From a virus (lineage: Duplodnaviria; Heunggongvirae; Uroviricota; Caudoviricetes): 10,146 nt of DNA. Where the stretch lies: IMG/VR virus record IMGVR_UViG_2541047850_000007, positions 1 to 10,146 of that record; one strand, given 5' to 3'. The number at the start of each line of letters is the position of its first letter. The stretch's first letter is position 1. Made by a program: the position numbers. Below, in pieces: positions 1 through 3,000 of this stretch.

Positions 1-3000
1 ATGAGCAGGGCAATTCATAGACTTAGCGACACTCTTTTACGAAAATTAAGCGGATCACCAACCACAAAAAACACCTTTTTTAATGATGGTGGCAACCTTA
101 GCGTAAGGCATTCAACCAATGGCCTGTTAACCTGGTATTTCACTTACAGGGCCGGAACAGGCAGGAAGGTAGCCCCTGAACGTCTGAGGCTGGGAAATTA
201 TCCAGATTTGAGCCTGAAAGCAGCCAGGGAAAAAGCGTCGCAGTGTCGCGCCTGGCTTGCTGAGGGTAAAAATCCACGCCATGAGCTTAATCACACCGTA
301 CAGGAAGCGTTATCACCTGTTACGGTTAAGGAAGCGCTCACTTACTGGCTTGAATCGTACGCGAAGGAAAAGCGCACAGATTACGAATCTCTGAAAAGCC
401 GGATCAATACACACATAATCAGCCATATTGGTGCTATGCCGCTGGAAAAATGCGAGCTACGCCACTGGCTGACCTGTTTTGATCAGCTTGCTATGCGTAA
501 TCCGGTATCAGCAGGATTTTTGTTACAGGTATGCAAGCAGGCGCTTAAGTACTGCCGCAAACGACGCTACGCAATTACCAACGTTCTAGATGATATGGTT
601 GTAGGTGATGTTGGGAAAAAAGCAGAAATAAGCGAGCGCGTACTAACAAACAAGGAGCTTGGGGAATTACTACGCGCCCTGGATGAAAAAATTTACACAC
701 CGTACTACAGCGCCCTGATTCGCCTCCTGATTGTCTTCGGATGCCGTACCACTGAGCTAAGACGCTCTGAGGTCCAGGAATGGGATTTTAAAGAAATGCT
801 CTGGACTGTGCCGAAAGAACACAGCAAAACGAAGGTAGCAATATTCAGGCCAATACCGGAAGCGATCTTGCCGTTCGTAACGAAGCTGGTGGAGCAGAAC
901 CGACACACGGGCTTATTACTCGGAGAACTGAAAGGGCAATCATCTGTATCAGAGTACGGAAGAACGGCACACAGACGCATTAATCAAGCCCCCTGGACGT
1001 TGCACGACATCCGGCACACGTTTACAACGATGCTGAACGATTTAGGCGTGGATCCTCATGTAGTGGAGCAGCTAACCGCGCACCAGTTGCCAGGAATGCA
1101 ACGAGTCTATAATCACTCCCGTTATCTCGATGCAAAACGTGACGCTCTTAATCTATGGGTTGAGCGTCTCGAGCTTCTCCAGAACAATGATGAAAAAATC
1201 GTTGTTATTACCCCGCGAATTTACTCCCAAAATTCTTGACAAATTACGGCTGTTTTTCTTGCGAAAAATGGCCCTCTAAAATAAATCGTCGAATATCGGC
1301 AAATATCGACGATTTATATGTGTCAAGTATTGAAAAAATTTGAAATGTCTTCTTCTTAGTTCTTATTCTCTGTTTCTTGATTGTTCCAACACCTGATGGT
1401 TTATCTATTTGTTTTTAATGAGGTAATTCAGGTGTCATGCCAAATAACGACATTTTTTGTTGCGTCGCTTAAAAACTCGTGACACGATTTTAAACACTAA
1501 CGAGCTTCTACGAACCTTAGCGAACAAAGCCTTTAGCATGGTTGTGTTTTTAATTTAAGAGGTGAAAAAGAATCTAAGTAATATCCGATCTCATATATCT
1601 ACAGCTAAGAGAAAAGTTTATATACGTAATTTTTATGTAGGTTTTTGTATGCGTGAAATAAATGAAGATCGCGTAATCCGCGAAAAAGAATGCAGAGAGC
1701 TAACAGGCGTCAGCCGTACTACACGCTACGAACTGGAGAAGAAAGGGGGCTTTCCGTCACGTCTTAATCTGGGCGGTCGTTCTGTAGGGTGGCTGCTGTC
1801 CGAGGTTATGGAATGGGTTAAAAGCCGGGATCGCATTAATTCAGGTAAGGCAGTGTAAAGGGGAGCATATGACACATAAAACAAAGGCGACCGGGGGCGG
1901 TCGCCAATGGGAAAACACTAAACATAAGCCCGAACATCATAGCGATTTGCTGGCTGGTGGGCAAATCCTGAGCGGTCCTGCAATTACAGGAACTACGGCA
2001 TTGTCGCGGTTAGGTTGTGCTCAACTTTTTTTCACCTCTATATCGCAAGCGCGCCGTAATAAATCGCCTTTATCGCTTCCGCAAAGATCCTTTTTCTCGA
2101 AGCATGATTTTAAGAGAAAGGCGACGACAATTAATAAAACCGCACAGAGTTTCCAATTTATAAATTTTGACATCTTTTACCCCTATGATTGTCGCCATCG
2201 TTCTTCATGTTATGACGTGATTAATGATTACTCGGATTCACTGGCCTTGCGCCGCTGGCGATATTCAACTTCTCGTTTTAATGCCGCAGTAACAAATTGC
2301 CCCGTACTTTCTCCAGGCATTTTTACCGCCTCAACATTGTTCATAACTTCATGCGGAACCCTTGCCGCAACGGTTTGTGATTTTGCGTTTACTGCTTTTG
2401 TCGCCATGTTGTGTACCCCTCATAAAAAACAAATGCAGTATGCAGGAAAAAAAATAAGTGTTCAACACTTGACGTGTTCAACACCTGAGTTTAAATTGGT
2501 GTTCAACACCTTGTTGGCGCAAGGTGCAGAAACGACGAAACCCGGCAGTGAGCTAACACTAACCGGGCTTCTAACCACCAACGATAGAAAGCGTATCGAG
2601 GTAGCTATGTTAAATCATACCACACACCCGCAAGGGCGGGATTCGCACAACCTGAATAAATACATCTGGCGTTTTATCGCCCTGAGCACGGCACAACCGC
2701 GCGTGATTACCATTGAGGCCACCAGCGAACAGGAAGCACGCCAGCAATCTCCGGCTGGCTGCGTGATGGTATTCGCCGCCCGTATTCGTCAAGGGGTGTG
2801 CCATGCCTGATATGTCAAATTACCAGTACCTGATTAATCCGCATTTTAACTGTGAGCATGATATTGCTAAAAAAGTTTATTCCGCTGCGGATGGGGCTAC
2901 TGACAATATATCAATGGGTATTGCGTCAATTGGTAGCCTGATGTGGTATGCGTCAGAAAATAAGGAATATGACGAAAAGGCCATGCGCATTGATATGGGT

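What the first reader, a model, noticed from the sequence alone, without database searches (positions are those of the whole stretch)
2408..2606. Divergent control region with a triplicated 11-bp palindrome that is one base off the ori iteron
Three exact copies of GTGTTCAACAC bracket the candidate rightward promoter (upstream of -35, in the spacer, downstream of -10). That is the arrangement expected of operators for a dimeric repressor, most simply the divergently encoded RHH protein. The core TGTTCAAC differs from the ori iteron TGTTCACC at one position, so these sites might instead or additionally be bound by the alpha-like protein. That would make them a second cis replication element analogous to P4 crr, or a site of primase autoregulation.
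Basis: partly seen in the sequence, partly recalled or inferred. Interest (0 to 1): 0.7.

Follow-up and report, generated by a model that had tools for sequence, protein, structure and literature searches.

The report
Repressor binding sites of a phage satellite
The three identical 11-base palindromes are most likely the docking sites of a tiny repressor protein encoded right next to them, which would keep the replication genes of an E. coli phage satellite switched off; this points to a candidate for the "missing" repressor of this group of mobile elements.

Summary
Observation confirmed. GTGTTCAACAC occurs exactly three times (2458, 2474, 2499) and nowhere else in the window. The copies sit upstream of the -35, in the spacer and at +1 of a rightward promoter (TTGACG-17-TAAATT).

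The window is an EcCICFT073-type phage-inducible chromosomal island: int, alpA, primase, P4-type iterons.

- In about 30 related loci the three-site architecture is kept, but the 11-mer core changes together with the predicted DNA-reading beta-strand.
- Two E. coli islands identical on both sides differ only in a ~250-bp cassette: the RHH domain plus the sites.
- A DNA-only scan found 47 loci with these sites. All 47 carry the SQT[VI]AAR-type gene next door.

The sites do not track AlpA, the primase or the iterons: the same sites occur with at least 8 iteron classes. The "one base off the iteron / crr-like" reading is therefore not supported.

A SymR-like antisense RNA opposite the icd-like ribosome-binding site is a probable second control layer.

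This is a new member of a known kind. It is of interest because no repressor has been identified in Gram-negative PICIs.

The parts
2228..2407 (-). 59-aa YlcI/YnfO-family gene; predicted ribbon-helix-helix repressor, with beta-strand S10-R16 = SQTVAAR
2458..2468 (.). O1: 11-bp palindrome. It abuts the -35 of the rightward promoter and contains the -35 (TTGAAC, minus strand, 2465-2460) of the leftward ylcI promoter.
   Evidence: The spacing to CATACT was read from the sequence. The site is present at this offset only in the SQT[VLI]AAR lineage.
2437..2442 (-). Candidate -10 (CATACT) of the leftward ylcI promoter, 17 nt from TTGAAC inside O1
   Evidence: Read from the sequence. The homologous TATACT lies at the same offset in about 30 related loci. 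The consensus scan did not call it.
2469..2497 (+). Rightward promoter P_R: TTGACG, 17 nt, TAAATT; drives icd-like ... DUF4222-primase
   Evidence: The -35 TTGAC lies 61 nt from the ylcI start codon in 26 of 31 loci, within one base in three more, and further off in two.
2474..2484 (.). O2: 11-bp palindrome in the P_R spacer; shares one base with the -35
   Evidence: A site sits at the same place in every related locus.
2499..2509 (.). O3: 11-bp palindrome just downstream of the -10, over the expected transcription start
   Evidence: The same place is occupied in related loci. O3 starts 41 bp after O1 in 47 of 47 IMG/VR loci.
2507..2526 (+). 5'-proximal leader hairpin, CACCTTG(N6)CAAGGTG; overlaps the last 3 bases of O3
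   Evidence: Relatives keep a hairpin here with different stems (CCTTGAA/TTCAAGG, CTTGAG/CTCAAG), as seen. No formal pair count was made.
2537..2571 (.). Conserved stem-loop of the leader. On the minus strand it is followed by a U-rich tail and is the likely terminator of the antisense RNA.
   Evidence: RNAalifold on 21 loci: 8 pairs, 7 of them with compensatory changes. MFE fold.
2534..2606 (-). Candidate cis-antisense small RNA (SymR-like) opposite the Shine-Dalgarno region of the icd-like gene; the match ends at 2606, one base short of the start codon at 2607-2609 (in relatives it covers the start codon)
   Evidence: Rfam RF01809, full-length match at 28.6 bits (gathering score 61), E 0.0012. 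SymR is also the top hit at the homologous place and strand in 4 of 4 relatives, at 26-37 bits. All scores are below the curated threshold.
2614..2622 (-). Candidate extended -10 (TGgTATGAT on the minus strand) for the antisense RNA, inside icd-like codons 3-6
   Evidence: Read from the sequence. Relatives have TATGCT or TAGACT 7 nt before the AGCCAT 5' end. Inference only.
2607..2810 (+). icd-like gene, first gene of the P_R operon
   Evidence: NCBIfam NF033153, 1.5e-19. Annotated in the 98.6%-identical RefSeq locus.
3411..5243 (+). D5/P4-type primase-helicase, the cargo of the operon under P_R; tested here as the comparator for the rival explanation
   Evidence: Pfam D5_N, Pox_D5, DUF5906. 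TIGR01613.
5255..5480 (.). Replication origin with 9 TGTTCACC iterons; a comparator, not part of the switch
1886..1905 (-). Terminator-like hairpin ending the leftward ylcI-orf50 unit. There is no plus-strand terminator between alpA and P_R.

Best explanation
The 2408-2606 region is the repression switch of an EcCICFT073-type phage-inducible chromosomal island.

The 59-aa YlcI/YnfO-family protein, encoded leftward, is a ribbon-helix-helix (RHH) repressor. One dimer binds each 11-bp site. The two-stranded beta-ribbon (residues 10-16, with 12, 14 and 16 facing the DNA) reads the central 5 bp. Invariant residues read the flanking GTG/CAC.

O2 lies in the -35/-10 spacer and O3 lies over +1. Together they block RNA polymerase at P_R, silencing the icd-like to primase replication operon while the island is integrated. 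O1 abuts the P_R -35 and contains the -35 of the repressor's own promoter, which gives negative autoregulation.

A SymR-like antisense RNA opposite the icd-like ribosome-binding site probably mops up leaky transcripts.

Derepression presumably follows helper-phage infection. The trigger is unknown. Candidates are an anti-repressor, or AlpA-driven read-through from alpA, because no plus-strand terminator lies between alpA and P_R.

What is shown: the sites, their positions, the fold family, and the covariation and co-inheritance of sites with the RHH domain. What is inferred: binding, repression, autoregulation, the RNA and the induction route.
For: 1. Three exact copies against 0.01 expected, placed over a 9-of-12 sigma-70 promoter.

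3. About 30 loci from at least 12 genera keep the same layout. The P_R -35 lies 61 nt from the ylcI ATG in 26 of 31 loci and within one base in three more, with sites at offsets of roughly 21, 67 and 90. The 11-mer core differs by class and follows the beta-strand:
- SQT[VLI]AAR with GTGTTCAACAC
- SQ[SA]LK[SA]R with GTGGGCCACAC
- S[KR]KLEAR with GTGGCTGACAC
- SKRFDVR with GTGTC[CG]GACAC
- SQS[VL]TAR with GTGTAAGACAC
- and others.

4. Statistics. Mantel r = 0.44, p = 2e-4; partial r given the rest of the protein = 0.26, p = 0.009. Of 46 pairs of loci that share residues 12 and 14, 42 share the site (permutation p = 2e-4). L003 and L006 share only 18-19 of 33 other residues with the window protein yet have identical sites.

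5. Natural cassette swap. L039 and L040 are 100% identical up to ylcI codon ~48 and near-identical again just after O3. They differ only in the RHH domain plus the operators.

6. A DNA-only scan of IMG/VR for O1-N5-O2 gave 47 loci. All 47 have O3 at +41 and an SQTVAAR or SQTIAAR gene adjacent. All site variation is at the central base, as expected on a dimer dyad.

7. EcCICFT073 itself has the module.
Against: No binding or expression data exist for any YlcI/YnfO protein.
- The AF2 monomer did not model residues 8-16 as a strand, and confidence there is low.
- Foldseek and sequence searches against the PDB gave nothing significant. Pfam RHH-clan hits are only weak.
- Covariation between a gene and adjacent DNA is partly expected from linkage alone. 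The partial Mantel signal is moderate.
- A few classes break one-to-one mapping: SQKIQAR goes with two site types, and two different strands go with GTGTCCGACAC-like sites.
- The leftward promoter is not called by the consensus scan.
- Published work on EcCICFT073 explains induction through the activator AlpA without invoking a repressor (PMC6092414).
Confidence: 0.8

Rival explanations
1. The sites are bound by the alpha-like primase/initiator because they resemble its iteron. They would then act as a second cis replication element like P4 crr, or as sites of primase autoregulation.
For: TGTTCAAC differs from the ori iteron TGTTCACC at one base. My own rough estimate is that a 7-of-8 match between two such motifs has a chance probability of about 0.003 before allowing for multiple comparisons. 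In L002 the iteron GGTGTTCATG also shares GGTGTTCA with O3.
Against: The same O1-O2-O3 set occurs with at least 8 iteron classes and unrelated replication proteins: GGTAGACA, AACCCGCA, AAAGTG[AG]G, CCTCTACC, CTACCAAC, GAACCAAC, GTGGGGAA and GGTGTTCAT. Only 7 of the 47 loci have CTGTTCAC. L003 and L006 show the same.

Conversely, L023 and L034 have TGTTCACC-type iterons and a primase 86% and 74% identical, but their sites are GTGTCCGACAC and GTGTACCCCCA. In EcCICFT073 the sites (GTGGGCCACAC) and the iterons (CTGTCTACC) are unrelated.

The sites are palindromes over a core promoter. They are not oriented iteron arrays flanking an AT-rich stretch.
Confidence: 0.04
2. The sites are binding sites of AlpA, the known activator of Gram-negative PICIs, which would switch on the rightward operon.
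For: AlpA is required for induction and activates PICI genes in EcCICFT073 (PMC6092414). alpA lies 600 bp upstream on the same strand.
Against: L039, L040, EcCICFT073 and the Sakai element have AlpA proteins 58-62 of 62 identical to each other, yet four different site types. The window and L040 share sites but only 40 of 69 AlpA residues.

Sites in the spacer and at +1 of a promoter with a 5-of-6 -35 hexamer are a repressor layout, not an activator layout.
Confidence: 0.04
3. The RHH protein is the antitoxin of a small toxin-antitoxin pair with the downstream 50-aa ORF (2021-2173). The palindromes would then only autoregulate that pair, so control of the rightward operon would be incidental.
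For: The best structural matches are RHH antitoxins: TacA, Rv0298, VapB12, ParD2. A small hydrophobic ORF follows the gene on the same strand. O1 overlaps the gene's own promoter.
Against: The downstream gene is not conserved. It is a different basic 57-aa protein in EcCICFT073 and Sakai, and it lies about 500 bp away in L039 and L040.

The conserved features are the two sites over P_R and the fixed distance to its -35. The window has no site at the ylcI +1 position, whereas both P_R sites are kept.
Confidence: 0.06
4. The sites are recognised by a host factor or a helper-phage regulator rather than by an island-encoded protein. The island would then sense its helper directly at P_R.
For: PICI induction depends on helper-phage functions that are still unidentified (PMC6092414). 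No binding data exclude this.
Against: At least five site classes coexist in one host species, E. coli, so a host factor is unlikely.

The only coding determinant inside the swapped L039/L040 cassette is the RHH domain. No YlcI homologue was found by tblastn in 50,697 phage genomes.
Confidence: 0.05

Closest known systems
P22 immI: Mnt repressor, its operator and the divergent P_ant/P_mnt promoters (with Arc)
   Same: A small RHH repressor is encoded divergently from the operon it silences. Its palindromic operator lies over the core promoter of that operon. The same site region also affects the repressor's own promoter. The hhalign register of YlcI on Arc is consistent with this. What is stated about the P22 system comes from established knowledge.
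   Different: There is no detectable sequence homology by HMMER. There are three separated 11-bp sites rather than one 17-21-bp operator bound by a tetramer. The controlled operon is a satellite replication module, not an antirepressor. No Arc-like second repressor is seen.
SaPI Stl (Rpr) master repressor of Gram-positive PICIs
   Same: The position and logic in the island match: a divergent regulatory gene sits between int and the replication operon and keeps the island quiescent (PMC6092414).
   Different: Stl proteins are large HTH proteins relieved by binding helper-phage proteins. Here the protein is a 59-aa RHH, the relief mechanism is unknown, and Gram-negative PICIs additionally need AlpA.
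P4 ori1/crr type I iterons (TGTTCACC) bound by the alpha protein
   Same: The window's own ori (5258-5478) carries the identical octamer next to a P4-family primase.
   Different: The three palindromes are not this octamer. They are symmetric, they lie on a promoter, and they do not follow the replication module across islands.
SymR/symE cis-antisense pair of E. coli (Rfam RF01809); P1 c4-icd and P4 CI immunity RNAs
   Same: A ~75-nt RNA would be encoded opposite the 5' UTR and start codon of the first gene. Its 5' end lies at, or 3 nt inside, the start codon. It ends in a stem-loop with a U-tail. The match covers the full model in 5 of 5 loci. As in P1, the regulated gene is icd-like.
   Different: Scores of 26-37 bits are below the gathering score of 61. 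There was no hit to Rfam C4 or IsrK. No seqA/seqB-type complementarity was found elsewhere in the window. No expression data exist.
RHH antitoxins (TacA, ParD, CopA_SO) and plasmid regulators CopG and omega
   Same: These are the best structural matches. They bind short palindromic or repeated sites at promoters and autoregulate.
   Different: There is no conserved toxin partner. The main conserved targets are on the divergent promoter.

Membership tests
YlcI/YnfO family (NCBIfam NF041551) | HMM score above the curated cut-off | tested here: met
   59.6 bits against a cut-off of 30, E 2.2e-16, covering profile positions 1-42 of 42. Also PHROG 949, 1.3e-21, function unknown.
Ribbon-helix-helix (Arc/MetJ/CopG) DNA-binding proteins | Beta-alpha-alpha fold with a G-x-S/T/N turn before helix B | tested here: met
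Ribbon-helix-helix (Arc/MetJ/CopG) DNA-binding proteins | Dimer through an antiparallel two-stranded sheet that inserts into the major groove | not testable with these tools
   Only single chains could be modelled. Indirect support: the sites are two-fold symmetric, and the only natural variation in 47 loci is at the central base.
Ribbon-helix-helix (Arc/MetJ/CopG) DNA-binding proteins | Sequence-specific binding to repeated or palindromic operator sites | not testable with these tools
   Inferred from covariation of beta-strand residues with the site core, from the cassette swap and from 47 of 47 co-occurrences. No binding assay was possible.
P4 crr/ori iteron element | Arrays of the initiator's own octamer (TGTTCACC), co-varying with the initiator | tested here: not met
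   The sites read TGTTCAAC. The same sites occur with at least 8 other iteron classes. Islands with the same iterons have other sites.
P4 crr/ori iteron element | Required in cis for replication and bound by the alpha protein | not testable with these tools
   Needs replication and binding assays.
Gram-negative PICI of the EcCICFT073 type | int - alpA - (regulatory zone) - primase - iteron ori - ssb - perC - capsid-related genes - terS, inserted at a chromosomal att site | tested here: met
   The window is 98.6% identical to an island between cspD/yljB and clpS. It has the same gene order as EcCICFT073 in NC_004431 at 1377930-1388654. Phage inducibility was not tested.
SymR antisense RNA (Rfam RF01809) | Covariance-model score at or above the gathering score | tested here: not met
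   28.6 bits in the window and 26.4-37.1 bits in four relatives, against a gathering score of 61.
SymR antisense RNA (Rfam RF01809) | Encoded opposite the 5' UTR and start codon of the gene it controls | tested here: met
   The match runs from 2606 to 2534 on the minus strand, opposite the SD region and ending one base short of the icd-like start codon at 2607. In relatives it starts AGCCAU, 3 nt inside the ORF. Transcription was not shown.
P1 c4 / P4 CI immunity RNA (Rfam C4, IsrK) | Match to the covariance models, with complementary target boxes in the same leader | tested here: not met
   No hit at E <= 1 over the window or at E <= 10 over 2440-2720. No complementary box was found.

The most novel reading that the evidence does not exclude
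The YlcI/YnfO RHH protein is the hitherto unidentified master repressor of Gram-negative PICIs, including the model island EcCICFT073, where the gene carries a late-added locus tag. It would be the functional counterpart of SaPI Stl.

It comes in at least 10 interchangeable specificity cassettes, each an RHH domain plus cognate operators. These would define immunity groups among satellites. A simple two-residue code (positions 12 and 14) would set the central 5 bp of the site.

A SymR-like antisense RNA backs it up. Helper-phage induction would work by lifting or bypassing this repression.
Probability: 0.45. Interest if true: 0.75.

Novelty: new member of a known kind. Interest (0 to 1): 0.58.

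Why it matters
Gram-negative PICIs are widespread: sequence similar to the 621-bp query spanning this control region (window 2200-2820) occurs in 1,523 of 5,426 complete E. coli genomes. How they stay silent is an open point. [quoted passage not shown] A 2026 survey still lists YlcI/YnfO as a "prophage-associated protein" with no function (PMC13612085).

If the assignment holds, several things follow.
- An uncharacterised protein family gains a function.
- The model island EcCICFT073 gains a directly testable repressor gene with defined operators.
- Islands with identical flanks but swapped repressor/operator cassettes are explained as different immunity types.
- A natural series of RHH-operator pairs becomes available for studying, or engineering, DNA-recognition specificity.

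It also removes a tempting but wrong link between these sites and replication-origin function.

Tried and rejected
- Rfam over the whole window at E <= 1 gave only a spurious miRNA match on the ori iterons, and no C4 or IsrK hit.
- I searched for P4-style seqA/seqB complementarity to the leader loop and to the conserved CTTCTAACCACC box. Nothing exceeded chance.
- A profile search of the protein family against PDB sequences gave no meaningful hit.
- Pfam on all 38 family members gave only weak RHH-clan hits: CB_ParB_C and PSK_trans_fac.
- tblastn of the protein against 50,697 phage genomes gave no hit, so the family is not a common phage repressor.
- Literature searches for YlcI/YnfO, for RHH together with PICI, and for SymR together with PICI found no functional description.
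- I first took the element for a capsid-forming PICI because of its capsid and decoration genes. Synteny with EcCICFT073 shows it is the classical type.
- My first regular expression for the YlcI N-terminus was wrong and found nothing. It was corrected.
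Full report
**Observation**

GTGTTCAACAC is present exactly three times in the window, at 2458-2468, 2474-2484 and 2499-2509. The expected count is 0.01, and none of 200 shuffles reached three. Start-to-start spacings are 16 and 25 bp. The motif is a palindrome of two 5-bp arms around a central C, so the opposite strand matches with one mismatch.

The only rightward sigma-70-like promoter in 1850-2900 is TTGACG (2469-2474), 17 nt, TAAATT (2492-2497). O1 therefore abuts the -35, O2 fills the spacer and O3 covers the expected start.

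TGTTCACC occurs nine times in 5258-5478. TGTTCAAC occurs only in the three sites.

**Context**

The window is 98.6% identical to an island inserted between cspD/yljB and clpS in an E. coli chromosome. Its gene order is:
- int (1-1239)
- alpA (1649-1858; Pfam Phage_AlpA, 1.8e-17)
- a leftward pair, orf50 and a 59-aa YlcI/YnfO-family gene (2228-2407; NF041551, 2.2e-16)
- the rightward genes icd-like (2607-2810), a hypothetical gene, DUF4222 and a D5/P4-type primase (3411-5243)
- the iteron ori, ssb, perC, capsid and decoration genes, and terS.

This is the gene order of EcCICFT073, the model Gram-negative PICI. EcCICFT073 carries the same YlcI/YnfO and icd-like pair, under late-added locus tags C_RS30120 and C_RS30125.

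**The protein**

No Pfam model or PDB sequence matches it significantly. Three lines of evidence still point to an RHH fold.
- hhalign of the family profile against Arc and against CopG gives weak alignments that agree with each other. They place R16-V-P-x-E-V on Arc R13-W-P-R-E-V, T12 and A14 on the base-reading Arc residues Q9 and N11, and G32-E-S34 on the G-x-S turn of CopG.
- In an alignment of 38 homologues (50-97% identity), N7, S10, R16, H19, G32, E33 and S34 are invariant and K9 nearly so, while residues 11-15 vary by subgroup.

**Comparative test of the main interpretation**

Thirty-six loci from Enterobacterales were fetched with the protein profile, and E. coli variants were added. 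The intergenic architecture proved remarkably fixed. The P_R -35 TTGAC lies 61 nt from the ylcI start codon in 26 of 31 loci and within one base in three more. One site sits in the P_R spacer and one just after the -10. A third usually sits immediately after the -10 (TATACT) of the ylcI promoter.

The 11-mer itself differs between loci and follows the beta-strand:
- SQT[VLI]AAR with GTGTTCAACAC (E. coli, Edwardsiella, Pectobacterium, Kosakonia)
- SQ[SA]LK[SA]R with GTGGGCCACAC (Dryocola, Yokenella, EcCICFT073)
- S[KR]KLEAR with GTGGCTGACAC (many Xenorhabdus, Pectobacterium polonicum)
- SKRFDVR with GTGTC[CG]GACAC
- SQKLQ[AT]R with GTGGA[GA]TCCAC
- SQKMSAR with TGGGTGCCAG
- SQKIHAR with GTGGAACAC
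- SQS[VL]TAR with GTGTAAGACAC.

The outer GTG/CAC is largely constant, as are the protein's invariant residues. The central five bases vary, as do residues 11-15.

The statistics are as follows. Site distance correlates with beta-strand distance (Mantel r = 0.44, p = 2e-4) and still does after removing the effect of the rest of the protein (partial r = 0.26, p = 0.009). Of 46 pairs of loci with the same residues at positions 12 and 14, 42 share the site (p = 2e-4). L003 and L006 share only 18-19 of 33 other residues with the window protein, yet have identical sites.

Some exceptions exist. SQKIQAR goes with two site types, and GTGTCCGACAC-like sites go with two different strands. The code is therefore not strictly one-to-one.

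**Two sharper tests**

The first is a natural cassette swap. L039 and L040 are E. coli islands that are 100% identical from upstream through the last ~11 codons of ylcI, and near-identical again from the last bases of O3 onward. The ~250 bp between differ. That stretch consists of codons 1-48 of the RHH gene plus both promoters and the sites: SQSVTAR with GTGTAAGACAC against SQTVAAR with GTGTTCAACAC. The only protein-coding determinant exchanged together with the sites is the RHH domain.

The second is a scan of IMG/VR with DNA alone (GTGTTCAACAC-N5-GTGTTYAACAC). It returned 47 loci.
- All 47 have O3 exactly 41 bp after O1.
- All 47 encode an SQTVAAR (44 loci) or SQTIAAR (3 loci) protein immediately alongside.
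- Every natural variant of the sites changes only the central base. O2 has T in 43 of 47 loci. O3 has C in 42, T in 3 and A in 2. This is what a dimer dyad through that base pair predicts.

**Rival readings**

Primase or crr. The same three sites sit upstream of at least eight unrelated iteron and replication-protein classes. Only 7 of the 47 loci have CTGTTCAC iterons. L003 and L006 have GTTGGTTC and AAGTGCGGC iterons with unrelated initiators. L002 has a 42%-identical primase. Conversely, L023 and L034 have TGTTCACC-type iterons and primases 86% and 74% identical to the window's, but quite different sites. EcCICFT073's sites and iterons (CTGTCTACC) are unrelated. The one-base resemblance is thus a property of this particular mosaic, not a conserved relationship.

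AlpA. Four islands with 58-62 of 62 identical AlpA residues have four different site types. The window and L040 share sites but only 40 of 69 AlpA residues.

Toxin-antitoxin. The downstream partner is not conserved.

Host factor. At least five site classes coexist in E. coli.

**Peculiarity of the window's lineage**

The usual site at the ylcI +1 position is absent; the sequence there is AACAAATGCAG. Instead O1 lies next to the P_R -35. On the minus strand O1 supplies TTGAAC, 17 nt upstream of CATACT (2442-2437). O1 therefore doubles as the -35 of the repressor's own promoter. This promoter assignment is read from the sequence and was not called by the consensus scan.

**A second layer inside the same coordinates**

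The leader contains a stem-loop (2537-2571) conserved across 21 loci, with compensatory changes in 7 of 8 pairs. On the minus strand, 2606-2534 matches the full Rfam SymR model at 28.6 bits (E 0.0012 in a 281-nt search). SymR is also the top hit at the homologous place and strand in four of four relatives, at 26-37 bits.

All these scores are below the gathering score of 61, so this is a lead, not a membership. The geometry does match SymR/symE:
- the 5' end lies at, or 3 nt inside, the icd-like start codon
- the RNA covers the Shine-Dalgarno sequence
- a terminal stem-loop is followed by a U-rich tail on that strand
- a -10-like element lies 7 nt upstream (TGgTATGAT here; TATGCT or TAGACT in relatives).

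No C4 or IsrK match and no P4-style complementary boxes were found.

**Mechanism proposed**

RHH dimers on O2 and O3 occlude P_R and silence the replication operon. O1 provides autoregulation. The antisense RNA blocks translation of leaky icd-like transcripts.

Relief on helper infection is unexplained. No plus-strand terminator separates alpA from P_R. AlpA-driven read-through across ylcI, analogous to the P4 late promoter upstream of P_LE, is therefore a speculative route consistent with AlpA being required (PMC6092414).

**Comparison and novelty**

Functionally this is closest to P22 Mnt with its operator, and in island logic to SaPI Stl. Structurally it is closest to RHH antitoxins and CopG.

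It is a new member of a known kind, an RHH repressor with palindromic operators. Its interest lies in the setting. The 2018 description of Gram-negative PICIs left the existence of a repressor open (PMC6092414). Later surveys mention immunity RNAs and Bro-type proteins but not this protein (PMC10111431). A 2026 survey lists it without function (PMC13612085). I found no paper assigning it a role, within the limits of the searchable library.

In the O157 Sakai island the same slot holds an unannotated 63-aa RHH of a different family (HicB-type, E 4.9e-4) with its own repeats flanking the TTGACA promoter. This suggests that an RHH repressor slot is a general feature of these islands.

Noticed in passing
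window 2534-2606 (-); L018 781-854, L025 1321-1392, L009 286-357, L021 242-311: The strand opposite the icd-like leader matches the full Rfam SymR antisense-RNA model in 5 of 5 loci, at 26-37 bits against a gathering score of 61. In the four relatives the 5' end falls 3 nt inside the icd-like ORF and so covers the start codon; in the window the match ends one base short of it. The end is a conserved stem-loop with a U-tail. This suggests a cis-antisense RNA controlling icd-like translation, and a possible evolutionary link between symE/symR and satellite control regions.
   Followed up: partly
L041 3019-3210 (-), E. coli O157:H7 Sakai island: An unannotated 63-aa ORF (…PQFRMRISPELKEQFDKEAQSDGISLANWL…; Pfam HicB-family RHH 4.9e-4, Arc 0.14) occupies the slot of ylcI. 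RefSeq annotates a 247-aa hypothetical protein on the other strand there. Two GGTGGTCACC repeats flank the TTGACA promoter next to it.
   Followed up: partly
L043 4474-4653 and 4853-5053 (NC_004431, 1380473-1381052): In EcCICFT073 the YlcI/YnfO and icd-like genes carry late-added locus tags (C_RS30120, C_RS30125). They were probably absent from the original annotation used in the experimental papers, which may explain why no repressor candidate was considered.
   Followed up: partly
L039 and L040 about 1060-1135; L038 735-1214: A second copy of the leader module (stem-loop, TCTAACCA box, SD hairpin and ATG) lies upstream of ylcI in some E. coli islands. Nissle 1917 has an icd-like pseudogene there. 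This suggests tandem or decayed control modules.
   Followed up: no
L016, L029, L032 versus L028 (sites at offsets of about 23, 68 and 91 from the ylcI ATG): Loci whose N-terminal arm reads M(T)RD.. or MSD.. have sites framed CTG...CAG instead of GTG...CAC. L028 has N in place of that D and keeps GTG...CAC. This may be a second contact, N-terminal arm to outer base. There are only four loci.
   Followed up: no
window 2021-2173 (-): A 50-aa ORF with a hydrophobic segment (MSKFINWKLCAVLLIVVAFLLKS...) follows ylcI on the same strand and precedes the terminator at 1905-1886. It has no family match. Other islands have a different small basic protein here.
   Followed up: no
window 3965-3972: A single extra TGTTCACC iteron lies inside the primase gene, far from the ori cluster at 5258-5478.
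   Followed up: no
window 2577-2602 and homologous positions in relatives: A third leader hairpin shows clear stem covariation among loci: CATTA/TAATG, CGTTA/TAACG, TGTTA/TAACA, CGTAA/TTACG. In most relatives it holds the Shine-Dalgarno sequence in its loop. In the window it lies just before the SD.
   Followed up: no
window 2607-2810: PHROGs label the families matching the icd-like protein (phrog_6196, 1.5e-45; phrog_1743) as 'transcriptional repressor', while NCBI names it a cell-division inhibitor Icd-like protein. The annotations conflict and neither was tested.
   Followed up: no
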